DNA from: a virus
Taxonomy: Duplodnaviria > Caudoviricetes
DNA length: 64,000 nt
IMG/VR virus record: IMGVR_UViG_3300046490_000039
Location: 33,903-97,902 of that record
Reading direction: 5' to 3' (one strand)
The notes under the pieces are model-generated. The model was not told where the DNA came from, ran no database searches, and saw only the letters and a list, made by a program, of their open reading frames with translations. The translations under genes and the position numbers were made by a program. Shown here one piece after another: positions 37,832 through 57,268 of the stretch (positions within the stretch are counted from its first letter, which is position 1; every line of letters starts with the position of its first letter).

Positions 37832-39553
37832 TCAGGGAGCCGTGGGACCAGTCGGGCCAGCGCAGGTGCGGAGGGCCGAGGCGTCGGGAGCGCCAGCGCC
37901 GTTCGGGGTGATGTCCGAGACCACTGCGAGCGACTCGACGGCACCGACCTGAGCGACGGCCGAGAACTCTTCCATCCAGATCTGGTAGTCGTTCTGGCTG
38001 TTGAGGGTCGAGTCACGGACCAGGCCGAGGTCGAGCACGCCGTTGTCCAGGAAGATCCACTGACCTTCGGGGAACAGGAACCAGCGCACCTGGCACGGGT
38101 AGGTGTTCAGCACGCCACCGGCCACCGGGCCAGTGAGCTGTGCGTCCTGGGCGATGGTGTCCTGGGTCCAGATCGGGCTGACGCCACGGAGACGCAGCCA
38201 GTCTTCGATCTGGGCATCCGAGATGCTGTAGCGGTTGAGGCCGTCACCGGGGTGCTGGGCAGCGATGTCGTTCTTGAGGACCGACTTCAGCCAGAACGGA
38301 GCGACGAAGCGCAGGTTGACCGTACCGGCGATACGGTAGCGGGCACGGAAGCTGTCCACTGCGAAGCCGATCTGCTCCAGGGTGGAGAAGGCGGCACCGT
38401 AGGTCTGGTTGCCGTGCATGTGGGTCGAACCGGCGTTGATGGCCGACAGAAGCTCCTGCTCCTGGTAGCGAGCGAACTCGACTCGGCTGAGCTTCAGCCA
38501 GGCCTCGACCTGCTCGGGGTAGGTACGGCTGCCCATGTTGCCGAAGGTCAGACAGTTTGACACTGCCTGCACGACGGCGGTAGACTCCGTGCCACACGTG
38601 ACGTGGAGGCAGGGCTTCGGGGCGGTCGAGCCAGCGGGCGACTGATTCGTGTAGCCAGCCGCATCCTGAGCGGCCGTGGTCCGACGAGTCGAGCCACTGA
38701 GATCGCTCAGCTTGGGCGGGGTGACGAAGCGGATACCGCCACGGTCAGCCTTGAAGGACGGGAGGCCGTCACGCAGCGGACGTACGACATCGCCGTAGGT
38801 CTGGAGGTTGTACCAGGGCGTCAGGGGGGCGCAGAGACCACCCGAAGCGATGATCGCCTGGGTGCTCGTGACCGACTCGACACGGGAGGTGTTGACCACC
38901 ACGTCGTCACCGAGGATGCGATCCTCGGGGTACTCGGCCTCGATCGAGGCGACGAGGAAACGAGCGCCGCTCGTGACATCGGCCGCACGGGTGTCGGGGT
39001 GACGGTTGATGAGCGCCTTGGCGACATCGTTCCAGCCGGGAACTTCCTGGCCCGAACGGAAGCCACGCACGTCGGCGGCGATCTTGGCGAGGGGCTTCGA
39101 TGCGGAAGCGGTTACGGCGGGCTTGTCGCCCTGGAGACCGACCGGCGAGATGACGACCTCGGGCTGAACTTCAGCGGCGGCCTCTTCCTTCTCGGCGGCG
39201 TCTTCGGCGTCGGCTTCTGCGGCCTGCTTGGCCGGATCGCCCTTCTCGCCCTTCTTGAAGGGAACGAACTTGCCAGCGAAGGTCTCGCCCTGCACGTCCC
39301 CGATGAAGGCGTCGTCGGCAGCCAGCTCGACACGCTTGGCCATCTCGGCCCTGACTTCAGTCACGACCTCCTTGATGGCTGCGAGTTCCGCAACGTCGTC
39401 CGAGCTTGCGGCCGAGGCACGCTTCTCACGGTATTCAGCAACCAGGAGCGACTCAAACTTGACGATCTCGTCGTTGTCCAGAGCGCCTAGGTCGATCTCA
39501 AATTGCTCATCGCCTTCGGCGGTGGCGTCCAGGTCCTTGTCTTCCGTAGTCAT
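37832..39553 (-). CDS. major capsid (hexamer) protein with N-terminal scaffold-like region
   Basis: IASGGLCAP...RGGIRF...KPC...CLTFGN...YPE...LDLGLVRDSTLNSQNDY. Confidence 0.9.
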   Translation of the reverse strand: MTTEDKDLDATAEGDEQFEIDLGALDNDEIVKFESLLVAEYREKRASAASSDDVAELAAIKEVVTEVRAEMAKRVELAADDAFIGDVQGETFAGKFVPFKKGEKGDPAKQAAEADAEDAAEKEEAAAEVQPEVVISPVGLQGDKPAVTASASKPLAKIAADVRGFRSGQEVPGWNDVAKALINRHPDTRAADVTSGARFLVASIEAEYPEDRILGDDVVVNTSRVESVTSTQAIIASGGLCAPLTPWYNLQTYGDVVRPLRDGLPSFKADRGGIRFVTPPKLSDLSGSTRRTTAAQDAAGYTNQSPAGSTAPKPCLHVTCGTESTAVVQAVSNCLTFGNMGSRTYPEQVEAWLKLSRVEFARYQEQELLSAINAGSTHMHGNQTYGAAFSTLEQIGFAVDSFRARYRIAGTVNLRFVAPFWLKSVLKNDIAAQHPGDGLNRYSISDAQIEDWLRLRGVSPIWTQDTIAQDAQLTGPVAGGVLNTYPCQVRWFLFPEGQWIFLDNGVLDLGLVRDSTLNSQNDYQIWMEEFSAVAQVGAVESLAVVSDITPNGAGAPDASALRTCAGPTGPTAP

Positions 39554-40084: not shown

Positions 40085-42256
40085 TCAGATCGGTGAGAGA
40101 ACGTCCAGGTCCATGAGCGACAACTGAATCTCGTACGCCATCGGCGTCGGGTCGTTGTCTTCCTTGCCCGAACCCTCGGGAAGGGTGGGCTTGCCAAGCG
40201 TGCGGTCGAGGAGGTTCTGCTCGTCGAGCGAGACACCCTTCAGGTATGCAGCGTACGACTGGACCTGCATCGAGATGCGGCTGCCCATCTGCGTCGTCTG
40301 ATTGGCGAGATCGTAGATGTCGCTGAACTTCTCATTGATTCCATTGAGGAAGTTCTGATCGAGATCTGTGGTCCATTCGATCGGACGGCCGTCACGGAAG
40401 GCAAAGCTATCGGCGGTCTTCTCGACCTTCTTCTTGGCCTTCTTGGCCTCTTCGATGCAGTCGGCGCAGTCGCCCACGCAGTCAGCGCAGGCCTCTTCGG
40501 TGTCGTCGCATCCGCAATCCTCTTCGACGGCGGAAGCGTTCACGGCCTCGGGCAGATCAGTGTCGCCCTCTTCCTTGTCCATGCTCTCGGCCCCCTCGAC
40601 CACGGACGCACGGAGCTGCCACGCCCACTTCTGGAACGTGTCGATTCGGTCGGCTACGAAGTTGGCCACACCCTGCTCGTCCGCACCGTTGGCGATGGCG
40701 AACGTCGCCTTGAGCGAACCGATCAGCTCCTCCAGCTTGGAGAGCAGAGCGGTGCCCATCGACTCGGGGGTCTCGCCGGGAATCGACTCGGTGATGGTGC
40801 GGAGCGCCATGAATTCATCGAGCGTGTACGGGGCCTCACCCTGAAGCTTGCGGATGTTCTCGGCGGTCGGGTCAATCGACTCGTAGAGATCGTCGTAGAT
40901 CTTGTTGAACAGCTCGTGGTAGGGCACGAAGTCGTCACCCTCCACGTTCCAGTGGAACCCGTGAGCCTGGTGGTACACCGTCACCGTGTTCGACAGTAGG
41001 ACCTTCAGTTGGTCGATCAGCTCTTGGGATGTTGCGGCTTCCACACTGGCTACAATACCAGCGGCAACGAGCGCCGTCTGAGCGCCAGCTACGATCGTGG
41101 AAGCGGCACGGGGTACGGGGAAGCCGGGGGTGTTGACGGCCAGTAGGCCGACCATCTCCAGCGAACCGTCGATGGCACGCCAGTCGCCGGACACGCCAGC
41201 GGCTCGGAGGTTGGCCACCTGTGCGTCGGTGGCGTCGGGAGCGATGACCCCAGCGAACCAGATACCGTGCTCGTCCTCTCCGGCCTTGACGTAGGCGGCA
41301 GCGAACCCGGTGTGGTCATAGTGTTCCTTGGCGGGCTGAGCGCCCATCTCCAGAGAGGCGTGTCCCGTGTTGGCGGTGATGCGGCCAACCGGCACGTGTG
41401 CACCCTCAGCGGTCAGCACCTCGCCCACGTTGAAGTAGGCGTAGTTCTTGTTGGATCGGGGCGGGGTGACGCAGCGGTCCTTGTAGCCGACGTGGCACGT
41501 ACCGAAGACGGCGGCGTGCCCGAAGACTCGCCCGTCGTCAGTGATCGTGAGCGGGGTGGGCCGGGCCAGGTTCGGATTCTTGAAGGCGGTGTCCGGTGGT
41601 GCCCAGCCTCGCTCGGCTGCGGCCGTGAGCGCCTTCTTGTCGTTGGCCTTCTCTTCGGCGTCCTCTTCGGCGGGGGTCTCGTTCGCCTCCTCGGCGGGGG
41701 TCTCGTCCTCATCGTTGACCTCGGTCACCTTCCCGGCAGCGAACTGCGAGTCCGTACCATCGACGGCGATCTTCGTGTCATCGAACGACGAGTGGAGCAA
41801 CGCCGTCACTCCTAGAATAGTTCCCCTCGTGAACAGGCGCTTCACGCCCTCTGGCACTTCACTCTCCGCAAACTCGGAAGCGATCACTCCACCGACATCC
41901 GCCGATACATGGGAGATGACCCCCTCCCGGATCAACTTACGAGCTTCCTGACCCTCTTCATCTGAGCTGAAGTATCCTCGCCCGTAGACGTTTCCCCCGT
42001 CCTTCCAGATGGAGCAGATTGCGCCTACAGCGCTGGCGGTCTTGTGCTGACCCTCTGCGGTATTCGTCCGATTCAGGGTCAGGGGAATGGGCAGCTCACG
42101 CCAGCTAATTGATCCCTCAGCAAACATACGACCGTCTACGGTCGGATGATGGCTTTCTCCAAAGGATTCTTGGGCGATGAGCATCACGAAACTGCCCGCT
42201 GAGGCCTCAGGTTCGTACACGAAAGTGGGGGTCTCTTCCCCAACGATATCGGACAT
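40085..42256 (-). CDS. capsid maturation protease fused to a Dps/ferritin domain
   Basis: DGR...LPIPL...VG...SADV; GRVFGHAA...CHVG...GEDEHGIWFAG...SGDWR...VNTPGFP; then HWNVEG...H...D..AE. Confidence 0.85.
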   Translation of the reverse strand: MSDIVGEETPTFVYEPEASAGSFVMLIAQESFGESHHPTVDGRMFAEGSISWRELPIPLTLNRTNTAEGQHKTASAVGAICSIWKDGGNVYGRGYFSSDEEGQEARKLIREGVISHVSADVGGVIASEFAESEVPEGVKRLFTRGTILGVTALLHSSFDDTKIAVDGTDSQFAAGKVTEVNDEDETPAEEANETPAEEDAEEKANDKKALTAAAERGWAPPDTAFKNPNLARPTPLTITDDGRVFGHAAVFGTCHVGYKDRCVTPPRSNKNYAYFNVGEVLTAEGAHVPVGRITANTGHASLEMGAQPAKEHYDHTGFAAAYVKAGEDEHGIWFAGVIAPDATDAQVANLRAAGVSGDWRAIDGSLEMVGLLAVNTPGFPVPRAASTIVAGAQTALVAAGIVASVEAATSQELIDQLKVLLSNTVTVYHQAHGFHWNVEGDDFVPYHELFNKIYDDLYESIDPTAENIRKLQGEAPYTLDEFMALRTITESIPGETPESMGTALLSKLEELIGSLKATFAIANGADEQGVANFVADRIDTFQKWAWQLRASVVEGAESMDKEEGDTDLPEAVNASAVEEDCGCDDTEEACADCVGDCADCIEEAKKAKKKVEKTADSFAFRDGRPIEWTTDLDQNFLNGINEKFSDIYDLANQTTQMGSRISMQVQSYAAYLKGVSLDEQNLLDRTLGKPTLPEGSGKEDNDPTPMAYEIQLSLMDLDVLSPI

Positions 42257-42323
42257 GCTCCTAGCGTAACTCCCTACCGGCTACCCGAACGATATCACGA
42301 CCTTCCATGGTATAATTGTTCCT

Positions 42324-42925: not shown

Positions 42926-44332
42926 CTACGGCTCACGGACGATTACGGCCGGGAGCGGTTCCCCCTTGGCCAGGGCGGCAGCGGCTCGGTGGTGACCGGA
43001 CAGGATGATGTGCCGACCGGCCTTGTCCACGTACACGATCGGGAAAGCGTTGGTCGGTGAGCTGTGATCGGCAGAGGTTCGTCCGGTGCGCCGATAGTTG
43101 TCGCCCATGTAGTAGTCCATGTGGGTACGCACAAGGTTCGGCTGTGTGGCGTGGAGCAATCGAGGGTCGACGGACTGAATCCGTGGGTGCTCTAGCGCTC
43201 TCCGGATCAGCTCACGGTCAATCGGCTTCTGGTTCTTGGATCGTGGTGCTCGGGGCCACGGGGTCGTGGTGGTCGTCTGGCTGTGCCCGAATACACCCTC
43301 GGTGCCCTTCCCCCACGAGCGCTCGATGGACTGCACCGAGAGGGGCGTCAGGGTTGCCTTGTGCGCCGACCACGCTGCGTCAGCGTGCCCGCCGCTGATC
43401 CACCGGCCGTTCTTATCCCTAGGCTCGTCACGCCGGTAGAACTCGGCCATGAGCAGCGCTACCATGTCCTCGCTTGTAGCCGAGAGGTCCTCGGCGTCCG
43501 TGCTCAGCATCTCGACCGGTGACTCGACCACTGGACTTGACGCCGAGGAGGTGATGGTGATAGGCTCTGGCGCTCCGAAGTTCGGGATGTAGGGGACGAC
43601 CACGCAGGCGCATCCCCAGTGATCTCCCGGTCTGTAGTAGTCACTACGAATCCAACGGTCCTGAGGGGAGATCTGGAGCGCACGGTCATGCCAGTCGGTG
43701 AACACGAGTCCGTCCATCTGGAGGTGCCCGTTGAAGGTACGCCGAACGGTCTCGCCGTAGAGCCACATCTTCTGGTCCGTGGTGATGTTGTTGGCGGAGA
43801 GCACGCTGTGGAGCGTCTGACCGCCCGTCAGGCCCGTGGCGAGGGGTACCTCTGGCGGAGCGCCACCACCGAGCACGCCCAGGATCGGACGCACGTCACC
43901 GAACTGCACCTCGTAGGCGACAGGCGGCTTCAGTCCTGTACCGGGCACGTAGTCGTTGGCAAAGAAGAACTCACCGAAGGTCGGGGTAGTGCCCGCCTGC
44001 TTGCCGATGAGCGCCTTGAACATCTCGACGAACGTGTTGCGGGAGCGCTCGATCGAGTCCTTGACAATCGGGAAATACTGTGATAGGGGCAGCACGTCGA
44101 GACCGAACCCGTCCATGAGAGCGTTCACGTCTTCCCAGAGACTCATGGCCAGCGCCATGTACTCGGCCTCCATCGAGTCCGTAATGAAGCTCGCCGGATC
44201 GAACGCCGATGCGGTGACAGCGAGCGACGAGAGGTGGGACTGCATCAGGTCACGGAGCGATGTCATCGCTTTCGACTCGATGCGAGACAGCTCGTACTCA
44301 GTTGGGTCTACGGTCTTGATGTCCAGGGCCAT
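42926..44332 (-). CDS. MuF-like minor head protein with C-terminal ParB/Srx-like domain
   Basis: W.YG...R.F..H..MDG...PGDHWGCAC; EPRDKNGRW; ATQP...ILSGHHRAAA. Confidence 0.75.
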   Translation of the reverse strand: MALDIKTVDPTEYELSRIESKAMTSLRDLMQSHLSSLAVTASAFDPASFITDSMEAEYMALAMSLWEDVNALMDGFGLDVLPLSQYFPIVKDSIERSRNTFVEMFKALIGKQAGTTPTFGEFFFANDYVPGTGLKPPVAYEVQFGDVRPILGVLGGGAPPEVPLATGLTGGQTLHSVLSANNITTDQKMWLYGETVRRTFNGHLQMDGLVFTDWHDRALQISPQDRWIRSDYYRPGDHWGCACVVVPYIPNFGAPEPITITSSASSPVVESPVEMLSTDAEDLSATSEDMVALLMAEFYRRDEPRDKNGRWISGGHADAAWSAHKATLTPLSVQSIERSWGKGTEGVFGHSQTTTTTPWPRAPRSKNQKPIDRELIRRALEHPRIQSVDPRLLHATQPNLVRTHMDYYMGDNYRRTGRTSADHSSPTNAFPIVYVDKAGRHIILSGHHRAAAALAKGEPLPAVIVREP

Positions 44333-44342
44333 TAGGTCTAGC

Positions 44343-45965
44343 CTACTTGGTCTTGGAGTCTTGCGGCTTCCCTGGCTGCGCTCGACGCTGCGTGGGCAGG
44401 ACCGGTGGTGCGGCCTTCGGCCCTTGAGGGGCCTGGCCACGAGGGCCGTTCACGGTAGCGGGACCGGGCGGCCTTCCGGGCTTCGCCTGTCCGGCCTCGG
44501 CAGAGAGCTTGGCCTCTTCGGCGGGGTCCTTCAACGGGGCGGAGCCGCCCAGCTTGCCGGGGTCGTTGGCGGGCGGCTCGCCCGAGATGGCCATCTTGGG
44601 GTCAGCCACCTTGACGCCGACACGCTTGGCGTATTCCTTGTCGCTCGGGGCGTCGTCGTCAGAGTAGCCGTTCTCACGACGGAGAGCGGCGTCCGAGAGC
44701 ACCAGGCGATCGTGAAGGCCCAGGGCCTTGTCGGCCTTGTCGGGCAGGACGACCAGCTCGCTAGCGTCATACCAGACAATGATGTCGTCCGGGCTGTCAA
44801 CGCCAGCTTCCTTGAGCGCAGCCTGCACCTGCTCGGGGGTCATCCGGTCGATGGCCTGACGTAGGTACGTGCGGGTCAGGGCGTCAGCGATAAGCTGGAT
44901 GGCGGGCTTGATGTGGGCCTCGTAGGTGTCTTCCTTGATGGCCCAGGCGGTCCAGTGTGTGGCCTCGCCCACGCCGAGCATGATCTCTTTCGGGATCTCC
45001 AGCGTGTGGGCGACCTGCTCGATGGCCGTCTGGATCGAGGCGTTAGAGGCGGCCGTGTCGAACGAGCGGGCCATCTCCTCGTACTTGATCTTGTTGACGA
45101 CATCAGCCGGACCAATGAGCACGAGCGGCACAACAGCGGACGGATGGTTCTCGTCCTGGAGCGGTGCCATCATCGACTCAGCGAGCGCCTGATAGAGCGG
45201 ATTGCTCTGCATGGCGTCGGGGTTATTGCCCTGATTCTGCCATGCCGGAGGGACCAACTCTTGGGGAAGTGCAAGAATTCCAGACCCAGCCAACCGGCTA
45301 CGAGCGATGGCTCGTTCAGCCTTGTTGAGGGTAACGATCTTCTCCAATAGTTCCATTGCGGGCCGGGTGCTGGAGTCCGCCAGCTCTGAATACTCGGGGT
45401 GTTCCTTCCAGATACGGATCGTGAGCGCACCGTCCGGGAGGTTGGCGGGTGCGGCACCGGGTAGGCGGCGGCGCATGAATCGGCCAGAGGTACCAGCCGT
45501 GATCAACTCGGAGATCGACACGGCGTCCCACGACTGTACGACCTCACCGGTCGGCATGCTCTCGGCAGCGCCGACGAGCCAGACCTCACCGCACAGGAAG
45601 ACGTTGCGACCGACCTGACGGAGCAAGCCACTCTGTCCGCCACGGGGTGAGCGGATGTTCTTGACGGCATCCGAGAACGCACCCTTCTCGATGACCTCGG
45701 GAGGTGTGTGCGGCGCATCGGACGGTGGGCGACGGGCGGCGACCAGGCGCATCTTGGAGAGCGCCGAGCCGACGTAGTTCGTGGCGTACCAGAGGTGCCC
45801 TTCTGCGTCGTAGAGGCGGAAGGCCTTGTGCTGCCACTGCTGGCGCTGCAAGGCGAGCTGGGCTGCGTCAGAGTACGTGGAGACCCTGTACGTGGCACCA
45901 GAGCCAGCCACAGACGACAGGATCATCGGAGGCTGCGGAGCGGGCTTCTTAGAGAACAGACCCAT
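44343..45965 (-). CDS. portal protein
   Basis: WQ..A..YD..G, GE.WL, RIW..HP...ADS, SRLAGSGIL..PQE, HW.AW, VWYDAS.L. Confidence 0.88.
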   Translation of the reverse strand: MGLFSKKPAPQPPMILSSVAGSGATYRVSTYSDAAQLALQRQQWQHKAFRLYDAEGHLWYATNYVGSALSKMRLVAARRPPSDAPHTPPEVIEKGAFSDAVKNIRSPRGGQSGLLRQVGRNVFLCGEVWLVGAAESMPTGEVVQSWDAVSISELITAGTSGRFMRRRLPGAAPANLPDGALTIRIWKEHPEYSELADSSTRPAMELLEKIVTLNKAERAIARSRLAGSGILALPQELVPPAWQNQGNNPDAMQSNPLYQALAESMMAPLQDENHPSAVVPLVLIGPADVVNKIKYEEMARSFDTAASNASIQTAIEQVAHTLEIPKEIMLGVGEATHWTAWAIKEDTYEAHIKPAIQLIADALTRTYLRQAIDRMTPEQVQAALKEAGVDSPDDIIVWYDASELVVLPDKADKALGLHDRLVLSDAALRRENGYSDDDAPSDKEYAKRVGVKVADPKMAISGEPPANDPGKLGGSAPLKDPAEEAKLSAEAGQAKPGRPPGPATVNGPRGQAPQGPKAAPPVLPTQRRAQPGKPQDSKTK

Positions 45966-49038: not shown

Positions 49039-49081
49039 GTCATCAGTCTAGTGGGGGTCCACCGTCCCGGACAATCACAAG

Positions 49082-49653: not shown

Positions 49654-50232
49654 TCATGCCGACACCTTAGCACGGAACCACACGCCTTGGACAAGATCTG
49701 CCGAGGCGGTCACTGTGCGGTCTCCACCGGTACCGCCCGTGTTGATGATGGTGAAGTTGTGTAGGCGGGCCATCGAGATCTGGTCGTTCTTGCGGGCAAA
49801 CTTCTCAGCGGCGGCCCTCTTGTTGGGTGGGAACACGATGGTCACGTTGACCTCCAGCTTGCCGTCAGCGGGGTTGTGCCAGCCTCCAATGGCCACCTTG
49901 GTACCGTGGGGCGGGGTGGTGCCCAGCGCCGCTCCTATGCGATCACGGACCAGTGCACGGAGCCGTGGGTTGACTGAACCGTCCGGCATGTAGGCGTCCT
50001 TGGCGTCGATCAGCTTGTCCGACCCCTTGATGGCAACGGCGAACCCCTTGGAGATCGGCTTCAGGTGGGTCGACATGGTGAAGCCAGAGTCCGGCTCGTG
50101 CAGGTCCTTGCCGAGACCGGCCATCCCCTTGCGGGACATGGACGGACCACCAGCGCTGCCGCCGCTACCGCCGCTGTTCGGCGGTCGGCAGGCTGCGCTA
50201 TGACAGGCGAAGACGGCAGCGTTGACGATCAC
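49654..50232 (-). CDS. hypothetical protein with CHSAACRPP tag
   Basis: FACHSAACRPPNSGGSGGS; SGFT...IGGW...DQISM domain. Confidence 0.7.
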   Translation of the reverse strand: MIVNAAVFACHSAACRPPNSGGSGGSAGGPSMSRKGMAGLGKDLHEPDSGFTMSTHLKPISKGFAVAIKGSDKLIDAKDAYMPDGSVNPRLRALVRDRIGAALGTTPPHGTKVAIGGWHNPADGKLEVNVTIVFPPNKRAAAEKFARKNDQISMARLHNFTIINTGGTGGDRTVTASADLVQGVWFRAKVSA

Positions 50233-50241
50233 AGGGATAGT

Positions 50242-52233
50242 CTAGCGGACCGGACACGCACCCCCGATCGAGCACGCCAGCTCCTCGTTGCCCGTATCGC
50301 CGGATACTAGTAGGGCCTCAGCCTTGAGAGAGTGATACTCGCCCTCGGTGAGGGGGACGTATGGGGACTGCGGCCGAGAGGCGGTCGGGAAGACCGTCAT
50401 ACCCTTCACCTCAGGGAGCCACCTACGAACAGCGGCCCACAGCTCGGGGAGGGTGACGGTCGTCGGGTCGAATGAAGCGGTGAAGCTCACGGCGTTGCCG
50501 TCTCGTCCGCCACAGAATTCCTTAGTGACGGCGGCGAGCACTGCGAACTGCTCGGAGATGGTTACCTCGTCGATCTGCTGCACCACGTCGAGCGGGTACT
50601 TCTCCACGAGCGGATCGGCCACGGGGTAGCTCACCACCCACGTGTTCTCGGCGTAGATGCACGGCTCGACCACGAGACCGTTGTTGCGAGCGGCCTCGAT
50701 CCGAGGATCACCGGTCGTGTAGCGGACGTTGCGGACGTACCACCGAGCGAGGATGGCGTGGGCACCGGGCTGTGTGCCACGGAGCTGAGCGATCGTGCCG
50801 TTGGGGGCGATGGCCGTGACCTTGATGCAGCGGGAGATCCCCAGCTCGTCACAGTAGGCGTCGGCCTCTTGACGGCACACCTCACGGTACCGACGTAGAA
50901 ACAGCCGGAGCGTGTCGTTGGTAGCGATGTCACGGTAGCGGACCCCGTGAGCGGCGGCCCACTCCTGGAGACCGAGGAAGCCCACGCCGATGCGGCGGTT
51001 GCGTTCCTCGATGGTGGCGGTAGGCTCGATCTTGATACTCGTGAGCGTCTGCCGGATCAGGAACCTGGTCATGTAGCGGAAGGCCTGCTCCGCTCCGGCG
51101 TGATCGGTACCGAACAGGCCGATGTCCACGCTGCCGATGTTGCAGCTCTCGCCCTCCTCCAGAGCAATCTCCCCGCACGGATTGGTCGAGCGCACGTCAC
51201 CACGCTCACCCACCGCCGAGAGCGCCACGTTGTAGAAGCCCGGCTCACCGTTGCGGTACATGCCGATGACGACCTGCTCAAAGATCTCCTGGGCCACGTT
51301 GTCACCACGCTGAATCCCGTCAAGGAACGCCTGGTCCACCTCCACCGAGATGTTCGTGGTCCAGTGCTTCATCGGGTCTTCCTTGGCGTGAATGAAGCGG
51401 ATGATGTCCGGGTCCCGCCAGTGCATGATGCTCATGCGAGCGGAGCGCCGAGCGCCACCAGCGACCACGGCGGAGGCGATGGCGTGGTCACACTCCATGG
51501 CGTCCATTCCAGAGAGCGGACGGCCAACGGCAGACCGGAGCACCGTGGCGATGCCGACGATGGACGACACGAGCGGGGCCGGGCCGGAAGCGGTCCCGCC
51601 GAAAGTCAGGATCGGCGCACCGTGCGGGCGCACGAGGGAGACGTTGATCGCCACGCTCGTGAAGAGGGGGAAGGTGGCGGCGTCGAAGAGTGCGCCCCAG
51701 GCCTCGACCCAGCCCTCACGTGAGTCCTGCACGTACTCGCCGTAGACGGACCCCTCGTTGAAGAACTCACCGGCCGCCCGCTTCACGTCCTCGTAGTCGG
51801 GGTGCGACGGGTCACAGGTGATGGAAAGGTTGAACGGGTGTACGGGTCCGGCCTTGGCCAGGTACTCTTGCGAGTAGTTGGCACCGACCCCGCCACCGAG
51901 CAGGAGCATGCTCCCCATGAACTCAAAGTGGTCAGCGAGTCTAGCAGTGAAGGGTGCCCGAAAGCAATTCCTACGAGCCTCTCCGGGGATGTCCGCCACG
52001 CCGGTCACCCAGAGATGGCGGCCAGCGGGGAGCAGAGCGAACCGATCCATGAGAGCGATGATCTCACGGCGCTCCACCTCATCGGTGTACTGATCGAGCA
52101 CGGCGTTCCCCTGCACCACTCGACGAACGGTGTCCTTCCAGTCCTCGTGCTTTCCGTCGATGACTCGTGAGTAGGTGCGGCGATAGACATCCTCGCCAAT
52201 GGGTCCGAAGTGTGTAGGGTCGTTGGTATTCAT
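50242..52233 (-). CDS. nrdJ: class II (adenosylcobalamin-dependent) ribonucleotide reductase
   Basis: RTYSR, PAGRHLW, NC, GGGVG, FGGTASGP, RRSA, TNPCGEI, RRIGVG, APNGT, C-terminal CSIGGAC. Confidence 0.93.
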   Translation of the reverse strand: MNTNDPTHFGPIGEDVYRRTYSRVIDGKHEDWKDTVRRVVQGNAVLDQYTDEVERREIIALMDRFALLPAGRHLWVTGVADIPGEARRNCFRAPFTARLADHFEFMGSMLLLGGGVGANYSQEYLAKAGPVHPFNLSITCDPSHPDYEDVKRAAGEFFNEGSVYGEYVQDSREGWVEAWGALFDAATFPLFTSVAINVSLVRPHGAPILTFGGTASGPAPLVSSIVGIATVLRSAVGRPLSGMDAMECDHAIASAVVAGGARRSARMSIMHWRDPDIIRFIHAKEDPMKHWTTNISVEVDQAFLDGIQRGDNVAQEIFEQVVIGMYRNGEPGFYNVALSAVGERGDVRSTNPCGEIALEEGESCNIGSVDIGLFGTDHAGAEQAFRYMTRFLIRQTLTSIKIEPTATIEERNRRIGVGFLGLQEWAAAHGVRYRDIATNDTLRLFLRRYREVCRQEADAYCDELGISRCIKVTAIAPNGTIAQLRGTQPGAHAILARWYVRNVRYTTGDPRIEAARNNGLVVEPCIYAENTWVVSYPVADPLVEKYPLDVVQQIDEVTISEQFAVLAAVTKEFCGGRDGNAVSFTASFDPTTVTLPELWAAVRRWLPEVKGMTVFPTASRPQSPYVPLTEGEYHSLKAEALLVSGDTGNEELACSIGGACPVR

Positions 52234-52395
52234 AGATCTAGTTCCCTTGTGCTGAGATGCGAAGGACGACCCCCGGAGGGGTCGCCCTGTCACGTCGCTA
52301 GTGCTCGGTGGCGGTCACCGAGTCTGCGCCTGTCAGCGGGTTGTGTGTCCATCCTACCCTGGTCGGGCCGGTTCGGACACCCGCTATGTAGATCC

Positions 52396-52722
52396 CTAGG
52401 CCGCCCTGCGGACGGTGCTCGGGGCGCTCTTCTTGGCCCGCTCCATCAGCGGAACAACCCATTTCCCGGTGCGTACCAGGTGGGCCTCGGCCTCCATGCG
52501 CTTCCGTACCATGGCACGGCTTCTGCCTACTCCCGCTCGGGTGAGGGCCTTGGTCCGGCCGGTGCTGTGCGGGATACCGACAACGGCCATCTTGCCAGCG
52601 CTCGGGATGGCACGAGCACGGAAACTCATCCCACTACCGCTACCGCCAGACCCGCCACTCTTCGGCGGTCGGCATGCGGCCGAATGGCAGGCGAAGATCT
52701 CGGCGGAGACGGAGAGAATCAC
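52396..52722 (-). CDS. basic hypothetical protein with CHSAACRPP tag
   Basis: EIFACHSAACRPPKSGGSGGS followed by an Arg/Lys-rich region. Confidence 0.65.
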   Translation of the reverse strand: MILSVSAEIFACHSAACRPPKSGGSGGSGSGMSFRARAIPSAGKMAVVGIPHSTGRTKALTRAGVGRSRAMVRKRMEAEAHLVRTGKWVVPLMERAKKSAPSTVRRAA

Positions 52723-53024
52723 TTGATCCCCTTCGTGAGCTGCGGTCCGGTCACGTGCTTGTGAGCCTTCTGGGCCTGAGCGAGTCGAGCGAGCACGGCC
52801 GGATTGTGGGCCTGTCCGGCGTTGAGTACGTTGACCCGGCCCTTCTTGCGGAAGTGGAGACGGCTGTTGGAGATGGCAGCGGCCTTGCTCTTGTCATAGC
52901 CCTTCGACCTGAGGATGTCGTACAGGTGAGGCCACTTGAGGGAGGTCGAGCGCCCGTACTTACCCTTCGGGGGACCGGCAGCGGTCAACACCTCAGGGTC
53001 GAACGACACGACGATGATGGTCAC
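52719..53024 (-). CDS. basic hypothetical protein
   Basis: SLK...LYDILRSKGYDKSKAAAISN. Confidence 0.65.
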   Translation of the reverse strand: MTIIVVSFDPEVLTAAGPPKGKYGRSTSLKWPHLYDILRSKGYDKSKAAAISNSRLHFRKKGRVNVLNAGQAHNPAVLARLAQAQKAHKHVTGPQLTKGIK

Positions 53025-53362
53025 TTCTTGGCCTTGGCGTAGACAGCGGCCACGGTGGACGGTACGGCCGTCACGGTGTCGTAGGCGGCGAGTACGGCCG
53101 GGCTGGCCGTGATCACGGGGTGGGACGGAGCGGGGGCCGGGGCGGCGCTGGAGGTCATGTGCACCTTGATGCCGAGGGACTTGGCACGGTTGAGGATGTG
53201 CCCAACGATCTGAGCGTACGGGGCCTTGCCCTGGTGGCGGCGACGGACGGCCGCTCGTAGCTCCCGCTTGTTGCGGATCGGATAGGACCCATTCGGGAGA
53301 GCGAGTCCGCCCTTTGCCGCAACCGCACGAGCGGCCTTTGAGTACATGGGACCAGATGCCAT
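53021..53362 (-). CDS. basic head-region protein with ALPxGSYPI motif
   Basis: ALPNGSYPIRN..EL.AA...HI..RAK.LG. Confidence 0.65.
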   Translation of the reverse strand: MASGPMYSKAARAVAAKGGLALPNGSYPIRNKRELRAAVRRRHQGKAPYAQIVGHILNRAKSLGIKVHMTSSAAPAPAPSHPVITASPAVLAAYDTVTAVPSTVAAVYAKAKK

Positions 53363-53390
53363 GTGCCTATCGTAGTTCGGCCGGTGGGGG

Positions 53391-54725
53391 TCAGCGGATC
53401 ACTGAAGGGAGGTTCGGCAGGCCAACGGGGGTGAAGAACTCTGCGATCCCACCGCCGAGCATGAGTTTCGTGAAAGCATGGACATATGCGTCGAGTCGGT
53501 CGGGGCTGGCGTTGCCGGGGACCCACTGCACCATCTGGTCCTCAAGGGCATCGAAGCCCGTGCCGATGTGGTGGATGCGACCCTGCTCTGCGAGCGCTGC
53601 GATCGGCTCAGCCCGGAGCATCTTGCCCCTGGCGCTGTAGACCTTCTTGACCGGGACCTTGGAGTCGATGGTGTGGATCGTGTTGACCACGAGATCATAC
53701 CCCTGATTCACCTCGGCCACAACCTGATTCGCCTGATTCTCGTGGTACTGATTGACGACCTGGGTCGCCCAGGCATCGGGGGACGGACGGAGTAGGGAGG
53801 CGTCCCGGAACAGATATCCGTGCCCGTCCCGCCCACGACCGGCCACGATGATCCCGCACTCGGTGGCCCGCTCGGTGGACTGGCTCATGTTGGGGTCAAC
53901 GCCCACGACGATCTCGGCCATGTCCTCCAGCCCCACGGTCCCGATCTCGACTCGGTTGGACTCGATCTTGACACGCTTCCACAGGGCACCGGGTTCCTCC
54001 AGGATCAGCTCTGCGTACAGCTCTTGGCGACCCATCGTCGTGCCCTCGTACCGGGCACGGAGAGAGTTGAGGGTCGACTCGGCCAGGTTGGCGGCGTTGT
54101 CGAAGGTCGAGCCGGTGGTGATGCGAACTCGATCAGGCTCGGTGCGAGAACGATTCACCAGCTCGATGATCAGCGGGGTTGGCTTGGGTGTAGTGGTCAC
54201 TACCATTCGGGGGTTGCGTCCGAGACGCATGCCGAGCAGCGCCATGTCAAAGGTCGACTGTGACTCTTGGAAGGCGCACAGCTCGTCGAGCCAGAGGTAG
54301 TGCGACTGAAAGCCACGAAGCTTCTCCGGGTCGCCACCGGAGAACGTGAAGGCCATGGAGCCGTTCTTGAGGCGGAGCTGGCCCAGCGATCGGTTGTACT
54401 TCTGCACCAGCTCCGGGTTGATCACCGAGAGCAGGCCCGACTCACCCTCCACGCAGATGTCACGGGCAGCGCCGATGGTCTGCCCGATGATGCCGACACG
54501 GATGCCAGGCTCAGCGAGCATGCGTTCCTTCATGTACTCAGCTCCCGTACGGCTCTTGCCGAAGCCACGGCCAGCGAGCAATAGCCATATATCCCAGTCC
54601 CCTGCGGGGGGCAATTGATTCGGTCGTGCCCAGTTGCGCCAGTTGAATTTCAGCTCGTTCGTGAACGAGATCTTCTGGTCCAGGCTCCACGTTTCCCACT
54701 CAGGGGGTAGGGATAGATCGGACAT
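53391..54725 (-). CDS. terminase large subunit
   Basis: AGRGFGKSR, WLDEL, TTTP, VGVDP, AEVNQG, SPDRLDA. Confidence 0.95.
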   Translation of the reverse strand: MSDLSLPPEWETWSLDQKISFTNELKFNWRNWARPNQLPPAGDWDIWLLLAGRGFGKSRTGAEYMKERMLAEPGIRVGIIGQTIGAARDICVEGESGLLSVINPELVQKYNRSLGQLRLKNGSMAFTFSGGDPEKLRGFQSHYLWLDELCAFQESQSTFDMALLGMRLGRNPRMVVTTTPKPTPLIIELVNRSRTEPDRVRITTGSTFDNAANLAESTLNSLRARYEGTTMGRQELYAELILEEPGALWKRVKIESNRVEIGTVGLEDMAEIVVGVDPNMSQSTERATECGIIVAGRGRDGHGYLFRDASLLRPSPDAWATQVVNQYHENQANQVVAEVNQGYDLVVNTIHTIDSKVPVKKVYSARGKMLRAEPIAALAEQGRIHHIGTGFDALEDQMVQWVPGNASPDRLDAYVHAFTKLMLGGGIAEFFTPVGLPNLPSVIR

Positions 54726-54770
54726 TGGTAGCCTTTACGCTACCACAGATTGTAGGCAGCCGTCTTGAGA

Positions 54771-54905
54771 CTACCCCTGCTTGAGAGTGCTGAGGATGTA
54801 TTCGTACTGATCCTCTTCACCCTGCTCGTATTCATTGCGAAGTTCCTCCGCCGTAGGCTCTTGGCCCGTGATGACAGGAATCTTCAGCGGTTCGGTGTTC
54901 TTCAT
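54771..54905 (-). CDS. 44-aa acidic protein
   Basis: GGAG SD overlapping the end of the upstream gene; MKNTEPLKIP... Confidence 0.5.
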   Translation of the reverse strand: MKNTEPLKIPVITGQEPTAEELRNEYEQGEEDQYEYILSTLKQG

Positions 54906-54910
54906 CGGTG

Positions 54911-56713
54911 TCACTCCTTTACTCGGTGCTTGGCTGCGGCCCCAGATTGCTCGTAGTAGTACCGCTTCGCTTCCAGTGCTTTGCCTTCATTGTAGAGGCG
55001 CTCCAGCTCTGCCATCTTCTCGGGGTTCTTGATGAAGTCCCCCTTCGCTTTCTCGGGAACAAGATACCGTTCCATCTCCCAAAGAACTGATTGAGCCGAT
55101 CGTGGGAGGGCTTCCGGAGAGACTCCGAGCTTCTGAGCGAGGTACGGGATCATCGCCTGAAGGGCGGCCTGATTGGCCGGATACCCACGAGCGAACCCGA
55201 CCTCAGTTGTGGAAGTGAAGTACGGTTTAGCCGATGTGGCGTTCAGGGGGAGGCCAACCGAGGCGCTGAAGAAGTGAGTGTCAGCGGTGATCGCTCTTTG
55301 CGCTGTATCGTTCGGGTAGGCAATGTTCATGTAGAACGCTCGGACCTTGGATTGACCTGAGACGTTGGCAGAAATGACCTTGGACATTTCCTCAACACTG
55401 GCCCCATTCTTGTCGGCCTTGGCGATCTTGATGGCCTTCAGCATGTTGGAGTTGCTTTGGATGATGGCCTTACCACTGTCCAGCCTCTTGTCGTACGACC
55501 CGTCCGGATGCGGGATAAGGCTGATCCCCTTAGACCCGTTGAACTGAGTATCGCCCTGCAACACCATTACGGCGAGTTTGTCCGGTAGATCATTGAACCT
55601 CTTACCGACCATCATCTTCTGGTACGAGGCGAGAGTTTCGGGTCTCTCCGCTTCAGCGATGGCCTTGTCTACCTCAGTGAGATCTTGACCGTCTTTCTTG
55701 AGAGCGTCACGCTTTGACTGAAGGGCACGAACCGCACGATACTGAGCGTACTGAGCGTGGGTGTCCGTCATCTCCGGATTCTTGCCCACGTAGTCACACA
55801 CCTGCTTACCATTGTGCAGATTGGACTCCCAGGCGGCTGAAGGACTCAAGGCGGCGAGAACCGCAGCGGCCGTCTCGTGATGATTGAGGCCAGCATCGGT
55901 AGCCATTAGATGAGATTCTGTGTTGGCTACATCATACCAGTGAGCAGCGGACTGAGCCATTTCCGGCGTGTACCCGGCCTCTATCGCCATATCGACCGTG
56001 GCCTTCAGATGGTCAATGGTAACTTGCACCGCCTCTTCGGGGGTAGTAACGTGCTGCCCGCCAGGCACGGCAGTCTGGAAATGCTCAACGAGTTGCTGGC
56101 GGCCCGTGGGCGTCAGCCCGTCGATGCCAAAGTCTCTGGTGCCGACCGTGCCTTTGCCTTTCGATCCCCGAGACACCTCAATCTCTCCGCCCGTCGCCCC
56201 TCTCGTCTGGCCTTTGGAGGACCCACCCGTTCCGCCAGAGGTAGGCGGTCGGCAGCTCGCATCATGGCACTCAAACTCGTCAACCTCCGTAAACTCTCCT
56301 AGAGCGAAGGTCTCGACGGGTCCACCCGCCGTCAGCGGTGGTGTGGCCCGCTTCTGTTCACGCCGCCACGCCTGCTTGTACGCTTGCTGGTAGTCCTCAC
56401 GCCGCCACGCCTGCTTGTACGCTTGCTGGTAGTCCTCACGATCCTCGTACGGGGAATCACCTCCCCATCCTATGCGGGCCATTTCTGATGTCGTATGCTG
56501 GCCCCACTTCTTCCCTCCCCCCGTGTCGCTACCGCCAGAGCCGCCTGAGGAAGTAGGACGACAAGCGGCGCTATGGCAGGCGAACTCGTCAACCTCTGTG
56601 AAGAGACCGGTAGTGATTGTCTCCAATCGCAGGAACGTCCCGCCAGTGAGCAGCTCTTCCTCTTCGACCATGAGAGGTCGAGCAGGTGACAACGATGCGA
56701 CGACGGTACTCAC
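54911..56713 (-). CDS. tagged protein with HhH DNA-glycosylase-like domain
   Basis: Two CHxAxCRP tags; HWY...AALSP...W.SN...KVRAFYMNI..P...TADTH...QSVLW. Confidence 0.6.
   Translation of the reverse strand: MSTVVASLSPARPLMVEEEELLTGGTFLRLETITTGLFTEVDEFACHSAACRPTSSGGSGGSDTGGGKKWGQHTTSEMARIGWGGDSPYEDREDYQQAYKQAWRREDYQQAYKQAWRREQKRATPPLTAGGPVETFALGEFTEVDEFECHDASCRPPTSGGTGGSSKGQTRGATGGEIEVSRGSKGKGTVGTRDFGIDGLTPTGRQQLVEHFQTAVPGGQHVTTPEEAVQVTIDHLKATVDMAIEAGYTPEMAQSAAHWYDVANTESHLMATDAGLNHHETAAAVLAALSPSAAWESNLHNGKQVCDYVGKNPEMTDTHAQYAQYRAVRALQSKRDALKKDGQDLTEVDKAIAEAERPETLASYQKMMVGKRFNDLPDKLAVMVLQGDTQFNGSKGISLIPHPDGSYDKRLDSGKAIIQSNSNMLKAIKIAKADKNGASVEEMSKVISANVSGQSKVRAFYMNIAYPNDTAQRAITADTHFFSASVGLPLNATSAKPYFTSTTEVGFARGYPANQAALQAMIPYLAQKLGVSPEALPRSAQSVLWEMERYLVPEKAKGDFIKNPEKMAELERLYNEGKALEAKRYYYEQSGAAAKHRVKE
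56358..56440. repeat. perfect 39-bp tandem duplication
   Basis: TCACGCCGCCACGCCTGCTTGTACGCTTGCTGGTAGTCC x2 (REDYQQAYKQAWR x2). Confidence 0.95.
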
Positions 56714-56722
56714 GGGGCCAGC

Positions 56723-57268
56723 TTAGCTGCCGTCGAGGAGCTGATCCGCCAAGTTGAGGGTCGCCCGTGCCAGATCGTCCATCGTGCCGTCGTTCTCCAG
56801 CACGAGGTCGGCCAGCTCGATCACGTCCCGCATGCCGACCTCGGACTCGTGGCCGTTGACCGGCCCGAAACCGGGGCGGTGAACCCACACGAGCACGTCG
56901 ATCCCCTGCATCTCGTTCAGGAACCGCACCCCGGTGGTCACCACACGGTCGTGTAGGGCCGCCTGCTGCGCTGCACGGTGCACCCAGGTGTCTTCGTCCA
57001 CCGAGCGCCACACGTCGGTCCCGTAGCGCTGTAGCAGCTCCCGGAAGTCCGTCGATGCGGCCTTGAGATCGTCGTACCCGAATACCTCCAGCCAGTCGTT
57101 GAGGCGCTGCGTCTGACCGGAGTCGATCTGGACAAGCGGGTTGAGGATCTTCATGTCACGTAGCAGGGCATCGCTCATGTTGACCTTGACGAAGCCACGG
57201 TGCTCGACGAGCGCCGATGCGGCAACGTCTTTCCCCGAGCCTGCGAACCCAGTGAATCCGATCCTCAT
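56723..57268 (-). CDS. deoxynucleoside monophosphate kinase
   Basis: GFAGSGKD...RELLQRYGTD...VRFLNE...HESE...NDGT. Confidence 0.9.
   Translation of the reverse strand: MRIGFTGFAGSGKDVAASALVEHRGFVKVNMSDALLRDMKILNPLVQIDSGQTQRLNDWLEVFGYDDLKAASTDFRELLQRYGTDVWRSVDEDTWVHRAAQQAALHDRVVTTGVRFLNEMQGIDVLVWVHRPGFGPVNGHESEVGMRDVIELADLVLENDGTMDDLARATLNLADQLLDGS

What the first reader, a model, noticed from the sequence alone, without database searches (positions are those of the whole stretch)
49654..56713. Portable 'F-A-C-H-S-A-A-C-R-P-P-x-S-G-G-S-G-G-S' tag on unrelated head-region proteins: candidate capsid-cargo loading system
Seen: the same ~19-aa peptide occurs four times in three proteins whose downstream domains share no visible similarity. 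These are 50232 (VFACHSAACRPPNSGGSGGS), 52722 (IFACHSAACRPPKSGGSGGS) and 56713 twice (EFACHSAACRPTSSGGSGGS and EFECHDASCRPPTSGGTGGS). The codons differ between copies, so conservation is at the protein level. Each copy lies near the N-terminus and is followed by a flexible linker and a different payload: a small domain, a basic region, or an HhH-glycosylase-like domain. The MuF protein has an analogous EFYRRDEPRDKNGRW junction. Established: T4 uses a capsid-targeting sequence, removed by the prohead protease, to package internal proteins. Inference: this C-H-x-x-x-C tag (Zn-binding or disulfide) is a packaging signal for proteins carried in the head and injected with the DNA.
Basis: partly seen in the sequence, partly recalled or inferred. 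Interest (0 to 1): 0.88.

Follow-up and report, generated by a model that had tools for sequence, protein, structure and literature searches.

The report
Two-cysteine leader peptide on phage cargo proteins
An uncultured ~100-kb phage of actinobacteria puts the same 19-residue two-cysteine peptide in front of many unrelated, mostly toxin-like proteins; indirect evidence says this marks proteins that are loaded into the phage head, but no experiment has tested it.

Summary
The four copies lie exactly where stated. Five more lie in the same 97.9-kb genome outside the window. A profile of the nine copies finds 334 protein clusters, all metagenomic, none in cultured phages or in 185,579 cellular genomes.

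The peptide is A-C-x4-C-[RA]-P-P…G-G-S. The His is not conserved. It leads each module: at residues 1-35 of small proteins, and every ~250-300 residues in giants with up to seven copies.

Payloads include PemK/MazF, Zeta, GNAT, ADP-ribosyltransferases, RelA/SpoT, DUF3626 and DUF7178.

Head loading is partly supported, by indirect evidence only:
- Tagged genes occupy fixed slots around terminase, ribonucleotide reductase and the head protease, with payloads swapped between relatives.
- One relative has a tagged cassette inside the MuF-like head protein; another fuses the protease to a tagged protein.
- Internal modules are preceded by h-T-A-[SA], the motif at the capsid protein's scaffold border.
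- A second leader (F-Y-N…D-x2-G-R-[WF]) substitutes for it.
- Payloads almost lack cysteine, like the tape measure.

The candidate cut lies upstream, so the tag probably stays on the cargo, unlike T4.

This scan had already noted the same tag on the cassette at the other end of this genome.

The parts
54911..56713 (-). 600-aa tagged protein with two tag copies, a short duplicated spacer module, then a DUF7178 payload. It occupies slot A, between the dNMP kinase and terminase genes.
   Evidence: Homologs with one tag: P0141, P0066, P0159. In relatives the same slot holds other payloads behind the tag.
56528..56584 (-). Tag copy 1 (residues 44-62 of the 600-aa protein)
56219..56275 (-). Tag copy 2 (residues 147-165; Glu in place of Ala before the first Cys)
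52396..52722 (-). 108-aa tagged protein with a 79-residue, very basic, Cys-free payload (pI 12). It occupies slot B, and its start overlaps the stop of the DUF7218 gene.
52639..52695 (-). Tag copy 3
49654..50232 (-). 192-aa tagged protein with a ~110-residue alpha/beta payload of unknown function that recurs as a module in other tagged polyproteins. It occupies slot C, directly after the ribonucleotide reductase gene.
   Evidence: The same payload (54% identity) carries the other leader in G003.
50155..50211 (-). Tag copy 4
49699..49713 (-). V-T-A-S-A, a candidate head-protease site 18 residues before the C-terminus of the 192-aa protein
42926..44332 (-). MuF-like head protein with a ParB-like C-terminal domain. 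Its Pfam Phage_Mu_F match is only sub-threshold.
   Evidence: 13.9 bits, cut-off 29.6. It lies directly after the portal gene. Its ortholog in L036 carries an inserted tagged cassette.
43400..43444 (-). Second leader or junction motif (E-F-Y…R-D-x2-G-R-W) between the MuF-like body and the ParB-like domain
   Evidence: interchangeability shown
44204..44218 (-). V-T-A-S-A in the MuF-like protein. This is the exact point where the L036 ortholog has the tagged cassette inserted.
39101..39115 (-). V-T-A-S-A in the major head protein, at the border between the acidic N-terminal ~145 residues and the conserved capsid body
   Evidence: Orthologs in L005 and L031 have I-T-A-S-A at the same place.
40085..42256 (-). 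Head maturation protease with an inserted ferritin-like (Dps) domain and an acidic Cys-rich tail
41615..41629 (-). L-T-A-A-A just before the protease catalytic domain; a candidate self-processing site
40457..40516 (-). Cys cluster in the protease tail, starting with the C-G-C (mostly D-C-G-C) that is present in all eight tag-positive relatives
53391..54725 (-). Large terminase, the anchor of the conserved slots
52719..53024 (-). DUF7218 protein, directly upstream of the 108-aa tagged gene. It is fused upstream of two tags in P0014.

Best explanation
The peptide is a lineage-specific, modular N-terminal leader. It consists of a Cys-x4-Cys loop, Pro-Pro and a Gly-rich hinge. It most likely marks otherwise unrelated proteins for incorporation into the prohead of a clade of ~100-kb uncultured actinophages. 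The cargo is mostly toxin-like or host-modifying enzymes, plus small basic proteins. Cargo is made either as single tagged proteins or as strings of [leader-payload] modules. Inside the prohead, the head maturation protease would cut the strings at h-T-A-[SA] sites that lie 7-9 residues before each leader. Each mature cargo would therefore keep its leader. The Cys-free cargo would then leave through the tail with the DNA. Shown: the motif, its modular placement, its distribution, the payload repertoire, the gene positions, the fusions, and the motif statistics. Inferred: encapsidation, cleavage, ejection, and the leader's binding partner.
For: 1. Family and placement. 334 clusters match at E<=1e-3. 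In the best 150 proteins there are 271 copies. Single copies sit at residues 1-35, and multiple copies are spaced ~250-300 residues apart. A leader at the very N-terminus of one-domain proteins cannot be just an inter-domain linker.
2. Payloads. They are the repertoire of polyvalent and MuF-toxin proteins: DUF3626, PemK/MazF, GNAT, DRAT/ART/PARP, Zeta, RelA_SpoT, ART-PolyVal, topoisomerase IB, DUF7178.
3. Position. In every relative with a recognisable terminase, tagged genes lie within 7 kb of it. There are five recurrent slots, including one immediately after the head protease stop codon (L005, L029, L031). Payloads in one slot differ between relatives while the tag persists.
4. Natural fusions. 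In L036 a tag-plus-payload cassette is inserted in the MuF-like protein between two h-T-A-[SA]-A motifs, where the window protein has one such motif and no insert. In L044 the protease is fused in frame to a tagged basic protein.
5. Candidate protease site. T-A-S occurs within 14 residues upstream of 46 of 196 internal tags, of 0 of 133 N-terminal tags, and in 1.4% of background windows, with the Thr mostly at -9. In this genome [VIL]-T-A-[SA]-[AGI] occurs 6 times (shuffle mean 2.0). Five of the six are in the major head protein, the MuF-like protein, the protease and two tagged proteins.
6. Interchangeable second leader. It appears at equivalent places in 13 of 171 tag proteins. In G003 it precedes the same payload family, and it also occurs at an N-terminus.
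7. Cysteine exclusion. 658 of 736 Cys in 95,190 residues of tag proteins lie in tags. Non-tag Cys is 0.08%, against 0.91% in 15 annotated window proteins. The tape measure has 0 of 1189.
8. Promoter-like element. The first gene of each tagged group has the same TAnnnT element 6-7 nt before the start codon as the MuF-like and protease genes.
Against: There is no protein-level evidence of any kind; all members are metagenomic. The largest tag arrays, including the five extra copies of this genome, lie in an island away from the head genes. The 'head module' here is interrupted by ribonucleotide reductase, WhiB and HNH genes, so adjacency could simply reflect permissive insertion sites. All tag-bearing contigs belong to one clade, so co-occurrence with any head feature is not independent evidence. 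The cleavage motif was partly defined on the data used to count it, and some sublineages have other sequences upstream of the tag (H-x-H-E-G-E, C-E-H-G). AlphaFold2 gives the tag no confident structure (pLDDT 26-32; fusion model pLDDT 48.5). Toxin-like enzymes could also act inside the producing cell.
Confidence: 0.55

Rival explanations
1. The peptide is a cassette-boundary or 'pre-toxin' module of a phage polymorphic toxin system whose products act inside the infected cell, for example in host takeover, exclusion of other phages, or kin competition after lysis. On this view the leader serves a shared partner such as a chaperone, an inhibitor or a metal, and has nothing to do with the capsid.
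For: Payload swapping occurs behind a constant leader at fixed loci, as in polymorphic toxin loci. Large arrays lie in an island far from the head genes. The payloads are classical toxins.
Against: Synonymous sites are scrambled, so the DNA is not a recombination handle. There are fusions to the MuF-like protein and to the head protease. A motif is shared with the capsid scaffold border. A slot lies directly after the protease gene. Cys exclusion is unexplained for purely cytoplasmic enzymes.
Confidence: 0.2
2. The peptide is only a processing element: a recognition exosite that lets the head protease, or another protease, separate the modules. Entry into the head would depend on something else, or would not occur at all.
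For: h-T-A-[SA] is enriched at a fixed distance before internal tags only. Modules are flanked by two such sites in L036.
Against: About 40% of copies (133 of 329) are at the extreme N-terminus of single-payload proteins, which have nothing to be separated from. Several sublineages keep the tag but lack the T-A-S motif.
Confidence: 0.15
3. The peptide is a self-contained structural knuckle (an intramolecular disulfide loop or zinc knuckle) that merely stabilises or caps the N-terminus of small domains, with no sorting role.
For: The two Cys are invariant and are followed by a rigid Pro-Pro. 19 of 329 copies have an extra [HC]-x-[HC] pair at -9/-7, giving four ligands.
Against: 94% of copies have only two ligands. 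The tag is separated from every payload by a Gly-rich hinge and is predicted disordered. It is exchangeable with a Cys-free leader. One cap would not be expected to suit dozens of unrelated folds.
Confidence: 0.07

Closest known systems
T4 capsid targeting sequence (CTS) of internal proteins IPI-III and Alt (reviewed in PMC9026906)
   Same: A short N-terminal peptide is shared by otherwise divergent, fast-evolving proteins. In T4 it is sufficient to load foreign proteins into the head for injection. The cargo includes small basic proteins and an ADP-ribosyltransferase.
   Different: There is no sequence similarity. The T4 CTS is ~10 residues, has no Cys, and is removed by gp21. Here the candidate cut is upstream, so the leader would be retained. 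Here modules are also concatenated into polyproteins. The function here is untested.
MuF polymorphic toxins of temperate phages (Jamet et al. 2017, PMC5576092; Apk2 domains, PMC12226406)
   Same: Variable toxin domains, including RelA/SpoT-type enzymes, are attached to a constant phage head-associated part.
   Different: There the constant part is the ~300-residue MuF domain itself, in prophages of Firmicutes and Proteobacteria. Here it is a 19-residue peptide. None of the 150 best tag proteins has a Pfam MuF domain, and no prophage copy was found.
Polyvalent proteins of phages and conjugative elements (Iyer et al. 2017, PMC5512222)
   Same: Strings of 2-15 effector domains (ART, ParB, GNAT, nucleases) are predicted to be packaged and injected. 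The domain families are the same.
   Different: That work proposes processing by zincin-like metallopeptidase domains, and a search of its text finds no 'cysteine' or 'linker'. Here every module has its own leader, no such peptidase was seen among the payload families, and the same modules also exist as free-standing genes.
Propeptide-bearing ejection proteins of giant phages (SPN3US/phiKZ; PMC7411985, PMC10052503) and the P1 Dar system (PMC12810830)
   Same: Many head-internal proteins are cut by the prohead protease at a short consensus and ejected into the host.
   Different: The protease family, motif and phage lineage are different, and no shared portable leader peptide was taken from those papers' abstracts.
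Encapsulin cargo-loading peptides and the C-terminal tail of the HK97 protease (own knowledge, not checked here)
   Same: A short terminal peptide docks cargo to the interior of an HK97-fold shell.
   Different: Those peptides are usually C-terminal and have no Cys pair. Binding to the shell has not been examined here.

Membership tests
T4-type capsid targeting sequence | Short N-terminal peptide shared by divergent head-internal proteins | tested here: met
   The tag lies at residues 1-35 of single-payload proteins, and the payloads are unrelated. That these proteins are head-internal is itself only inferred.
T4-type capsid targeting sequence | Peptide is sufficient to encapsidate a foreign protein | not testable with these tools
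   Needs a reporter fusion in a procapsid-producing system.
T4-type capsid targeting sequence | Peptide is removed by the prohead protease after loading | tested here: not met
   No conserved motif follows the tag. The only conserved candidate site, h-T-A-[SA], lies upstream of it. This rests on sequence inference only.
MuF polymorphic toxins | N-terminal Phage_Mu_F domain fused to a C-terminal toxin | tested here: not met
   No PF04233 match among the 150 best tag proteins. The window's own MuF-like protein scores 13.9 bits against a cut-off of 29.6. One relative has a cassette inserted in the MuF-like protein.
MuF polymorphic toxins | Encoded by temperate phages or prophages | tested here: not met
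   No confirmed tag in one genome for each of 185,579 species. All sources are metagenomes.
MuF polymorphic toxins | Polymorphic C-terminal toxin domains | tested here: met
Polyvalent proteins | Two to fifteen effector domains in one polypeptide of a phage with a portal-terminase system | tested here: met
   Relatives have 5-7 modules. In the window the 600-aa protein has two leaders. Portal and terminase are present.
Polyvalent proteins | Zincin-like metallopeptidase domain for processing | tested here: inconclusive
   None appears among the Pfam families tallied, but most modules have no Pfam match.
Zinc knuckle / zinc ribbon | Four conserved Cys/His ligands in one short element | tested here: not met
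   Only two Cys are invariant, and the residue after the first Cys is H/Y/R/K. A full four-ligand set is present in 19 of 329 copies.
Bacterial lipoprotein signal (lipobox) | Hydrophobic signal peptide ending in L-[AS]-[GA]-C | tested here: not met
   There is no hydrophobic h-region. Glu is frequent at -3, and tags occur internally.

The most novel reading that the evidence does not exclude
The leader is a half metal site. Its two thiolates would pair with the conserved C-G-C (mostly D-C-G-C) in the acidic tail of the head maturation protease, or with the C-x-C of the MuF-like protein, to form an intermolecular four-Cys zinc or iron 'clasp'. The clasp would tether any tagged protein to the protease as it enters the prohead. 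This would be a metal-bridged, programmable cargo-loading mechanism not known for any virus. It would fit the ferritin-like domain inserted next to that Cys cluster, the near-total exclusion of other cysteines from cargo, and the minority of tags that carry their own second ligand pair.
Probability: 0.12. Interest if true: 0.85.

Novelty: new variant of a known kind. Interest (0 to 1): 0.7.

Why it matters
If the leader really sorts proteins into the head, it would be a second, independent capsid-targeting code, in HK97-fold actinophages, after the T4 CTS. It would be portable enough to sit on dozens of enzyme families, and it would come with a readable processing site and an alternative leader. 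That would make the injected-effector arsenal of an uncultured phage clade directly listable from sequence. It would link MuF toxins, polyvalent proteins and T4 internal proteins as versions of one strategy. It would also offer a short tag for loading foreign proteins into actinophage capsids. The practical annotation point holds whatever the function: gene callers can start these genes downstream of the leader, as in the Atlas record for the 192-aa protein, so the tag is easily missed.

Tried and rejected
- A tblastn of a 31-residue tag against 50,697 phage records gave no match. A query this short has low sensitivity, so this is weak evidence of absence. The closest cultured capsid relative examined, Gordonia phage GMA2, has no tag.
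A 45-residue profile worked.
- AlphaFold2 of the 192-aa protein (mean pLDDT 44.5) and of the natural protease-tag fusion (48.5) were too poor for fold search or for judging a Cys cluster, so no fold search was run.
- A sequence-profile search of solved structures with the DUF7178 payload found nothing meaningful. The 'HhH glycosylase' idea is therefore unsupported.
- The ESM Atlas gave only viral hypothetical clusters for the 192-aa payload, plus weak fold resemblance to nucleoside deoxyribosyltransferase-like proteins. This is a lead only.
- The C-terminal half of the MuF-like protein has no match in cultured phages.
- Considered and rejected: a lipobox (no signal peptide; internal copies); an intein or autoproteolytic A|C junction (no folded domain follows, only a Gly hinge); a DNA-level repeat or recombination site (synonymous sites differ); and a programmed frameshift joining protease and tagged gene (the upstream alternative frame looks non-coding).
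- The link between the protease C-G-C and tag presence holds: 8 of 8 tag-positive records have it, and 5 of 5 resolvable complete tag-negative genomes lack it. It is confounded by shared ancestry and is not used as support.
Full report
WHAT THE WINDOW IS

The window is bases 33903-97902 of a 97.9-kb virus record. The record has 62% G+C and one tRNA-Met.

The region of the finding is read on the minus strand. In transcription order it encodes:
- a dNMP kinase-like protein;
- a 600-aa protein;
- the large terminase (Pfam Terminase_6N and 6C);
- two small proteins, one of them DUF7218;
- a 108-aa protein;
- a class II ribonucleotide reductase;
- a 192-aa protein;
- an HNH endonuclease;
- a WhiB-like protein;
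- the portal (phrog_776, E 3.7e-93);
- a MuF-like protein;
- a head maturation protease with an inserted ferritin-like domain (phrog_18402, E 1.7e-54; Pfam Ferritin, E 1.5e-15);
- the major head protein (phrog_777, E 2e-76)
.

The nearest cultured capsid relatives are phages of Arthrobacter, Gordonia and Mycobacterium, at 35-41% identity. The host is therefore most likely an actinobacterium.

THE OBSERVATION

The four peptides are present exactly as quoted, at 56528-56584, 56219-56275, 52639-52695 and 50155-50211. The rest of the genome holds five more copies. They lie in four adjacent genes at genome 3652-7339, in front of RelA/SpoT-like, ParB-like, GNAT-like and other payloads.

Nothing else in six frames of the genome matches the full motif.

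Codons differ at 52 of 93 identical-residue pairs among the window copies. Selection therefore acts on the peptide, not on the DNA. The nine payload segments are mutually unrelated.

THE FAMILY

A 31-column profile of the nine copies was run against 1.84 billion representative proteins. It found 334 proteins at E<=1e-3 and 49 at E<=1e-10.

In the best 150 there are 271 copies:
- Proteins with one copy carry it at residues 1-35.
- Proteins of 1,400-2,250 residues carry five to seven copies, spaced about 250-300 residues apart.

Two forms exist: C-R-P-P-x-S-G-G-x-G-G-S, and the one-residue-shorter C-A-P-P-P-x-G-x-G-G-S. The invariant positions are Ala-1, both Cys, Pro-Pro and the Gly-Gly-Ser. 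The residue after the first Cys is His in only 60% of copies.

All sources are metagenomes. The longest contigs are 87-113 kb. A pattern scan of one genome for each of 185,579 prokaryote species gave no confirmed copy. Of 81 viral records with a related head protease, only the five closest carry tags. None of 15 complete genomes with more distant proteases does. The tag is thus an invention of one clade of ~100-kb phages.

PAYLOADS

Pfam families found behind tags are:
- DUF3626, PemK/MazF, GNAT acetyltransferases;
- DRAT, ADPrib_exo_Tox, ART-PolyVal, PARP and Arr ADP-ribosyltransferases;
- Zeta toxin, L5 gp82, poly(A) polymerase-type nucleotidyltransferase, topoisomerase IB;
- RelA_SpoT, DUF7178 and DUF7218
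.

This is the repertoire of polyvalent proteins and MuF toxins (PMC5512222, PMC5576092). No Phage_Mu_F domain is among them.

The three window proteins:
- The 600-aa payload is DUF7178 plus a conserved C-terminal region. Single-tag homologs are P0141, P0066 and P0159.
- The 192-aa payload is a ~110-residue module that recurs inside other tagged polyproteins.
- The 108-aa payload is a Cys-free basic peptide of pI 12.

GENOMIC CONTEXT

Tagged genes recur in five slots:
- A: between the dNMP kinase and the terminase (six contigs).
- B: between the terminase/DUF7218 genes and the reductase (up to six tags in L030).
- C: directly after the reductase.
- D: starting at the stop codon of the head protease, before the capsid gene (L005, L029, L031).
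- E: an island before a serine recombinase, with 6-10 tags in L012, L013 and L015. This is the place of the five extra copies in this genome.

In slots A-C the relatives match the window proteins only over the tag, so payloads have been exchanged behind a constant leader. The island, however, shows that linkage to head genes is not absolute.

LINKS TO THE HEAD INTERIOR

(i) Cassette in the MuF-like protein. In L036 the ortholog of the MuF-like protein (51% identity) contains an inserted cassette. The cassette sits immediately after an A-L-T-A-S motif. It consists of the Cys tag plus about 190 residues and ends with A-L-T-A-A. The window protein has A-V-T-A-S-A at that point and no insert.

(ii) Fusion to the protease. 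In L044 the head protease continues in frame into the slot-D tagged basic protein.

(iii) Shared upstream motif.
- T-A-S lies within 14 residues upstream of 46 of 196 internal tags and of none of 133 N-terminal tags. The background rate is 1.4%. The Thr is mostly at -9.
- N-terminal leaders of the same type begin M-S-L-I-E-L-A-C where internal ones read T-A-S-A-L-I-E-L-A-C. A cut after T-A would therefore give every module the same N-terminus.
- The same pentapeptide V-T-A-S-A occurs in the window's major head protein, at the border between its acidic N-terminal ~145 residues and the part that aligns with cultured capsid proteins. It also occurs in the MuF-like protein and near the end of the 192-aa tagged protein. 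A related L-T-A-A-A lies just before the protease catalytic domain.
- The pattern [VIL]-T-A-[SA]-[AGI] occurs six times in the proteome, against 2.0 expected from shuffling. Five of the six are in these head or tagged proteins.
- I read this as the recognition site of the head protease. That is inference: the scissile bond is unknown, and the pattern was partly derived from the same data.

(iv) Cysteine exclusion. 658 of 736 Cys in 95,190 residues of tag proteins are the tag cysteines. Non-tag Cys is 0.08%, against 0.91% in 15 annotated proteins of the window. The tape measure, a protein expected to leave through the tail, has none in 1,189 residues. This fits proteins that must stay unfolded-competent for passage, or a chemistry in which stray thiols would interfere.

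(v) Promoter-like element. The first gene of each tagged group shares a TAnnnT element 6-7 nt before the start codon with the MuF-like and protease genes.

A SECOND, INTERCHANGEABLE LEADER

- The motif [FY]-N-P-x-Q-P-R-D-x2-G-[RK]-W occurs in 13 of 171 tag proteins, at module starts or near the N-terminus.
- In P0102 it stands where three homologs have the Cys tag.
- In the complete relative G003, a variant F-Y-N-K-N-H-D-x2-G-R-F precedes every module of two polyproteins. One of these modules is the 192-aa-type payload (54% identity to the window protein). The variant also opens one of the two proteins at residue 4.

The same cargo can thus carry either leader.

WHAT THE CYSTEINES DO

This is unresolved.
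- Only two ligands are invariant.
- 19 of 329 tags add an [HC]-x-[HC] pair at -9 or -7, against a background of 0.6%. This hints at metal binding, with the second ligand pair usually supplied in trans.
- The protease tail carries a C-G-C (mostly D-C-G-C) in all eight tag-positive records. It is absent from the five complete tag-negative genomes whose tails I could read. These are one clade, so this is a lead, not evidence.
- AlphaFold2 models were uninformative.

COMPARISON WITH THE KNOWN

Functionally the closest precedent is the T4 capsid targeting sequence (PMC9026906). There is no sequence relationship. The tag is probably retained rather than removed. Modules are also strung into polyproteins.

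It is not a MuF toxin: there is no MuF domain and no prophage copy. It is a distinctive version of the polyvalent-protein theme in which each module has its own leader. A text search of the three papers on MuF toxins and polyvalent proteins found no mention of such a cysteine leader, and a library search for 'polyvalent protein' plus 'actinobacteriophage' returned no paper.

This scan had already noted the tag on the cassette at the other end of this genome (e1-5938951). My work agrees with that note. It adds the slots, the fusions, the site statistics, the second leader and the cysteine exclusion.

VERDICT

The cargo-loading reading is the best available explanation (about 0.55) but rests wholly on comparative inference. 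It is a new variant of a known kind.

Noticed in passing
L116 (Mycobacterium phage Sebata NC_041993.1, record 54071-57167): Two adjacent genes lie next to the head fiber gene: gp106 (DUF7178, E 8.3e-15, homolog of the window's 600-aa payload) and gp107 (54% identical to a DUF3626-like module of G003). They share their own ~18-residue N-terminal peptide (I-[VT]-[TS]-A-R-E-Q-x-E-M-L-x-P-W-x-R-E). The peptide is found only twice in that genome. This may be a cultured analogue of a lineage-specific leader.
   Followed up: partly
L009 51-3258 (G003, complete 106-kb relative): Two polyproteins have every module preceded by F-Y-N-K-N-H-D-x2-G-[RK]-F instead of the Cys tag. The modules include PemK, DUF3626-like, ParB-like and the window's 192-aa-type payload.
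   Followed up: yes
window 19814-23383: The 1,189-residue tape measure protein contains no cysteine at all, and it carries a V-T-A-A-I motif 15 residues from its C-terminus.
   Followed up: no
window 40457-40516: The head protease ends in an acidic tail with six Cys in 20 residues, directly after the inserted ferritin-like (Dps) domain. Relatives without the Dps insert keep only a C-G-C (mostly D-C-G-C).
   Followed up: partly
window 56363-56440: There is a perfect tandem duplication of a 13-residue unit (R-E-D-Y-Q-Q-A-Y-K-Q-A-W-R) between the two tags of the 600-aa protein. The ~14 residues upstream of each tag are also duplicated, which suggests a recent internal duplication of the leader.
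   Followed up: no
window 50137-50232: The ESM Atlas record for the 192-aa protein starts at Met32, downstream of the tag. Automatic gene calls can therefore cut the leader off.
   Followed up: no
window 56720-56735, 50239-50253, 44339-44354, 42263-42276, 49045-49060: A TAnnnT hexamer lies 6-7 nt before the start codon, with no Shine-Dalgarno sequence. It occurs at tagged genes, the MuF-like gene, the protease gene and the HNH gene. It looks like a leaderless promoter class.
   Followed up: partly
L005 1137-1571, L029 296-766, L031 9983-10648: The slot-D tagged proteins share a conserved basic C-terminus (…T-R-x-E-A-R-R-S-R-G-G-x-D-x-P-V-A-A-S). They sit between the protease gene and a set of glycosyltransferase genes that precede the capsid gene. 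In the window this slot is occupied by an HNH endonuclease (39584-39961).
   Followed up: no
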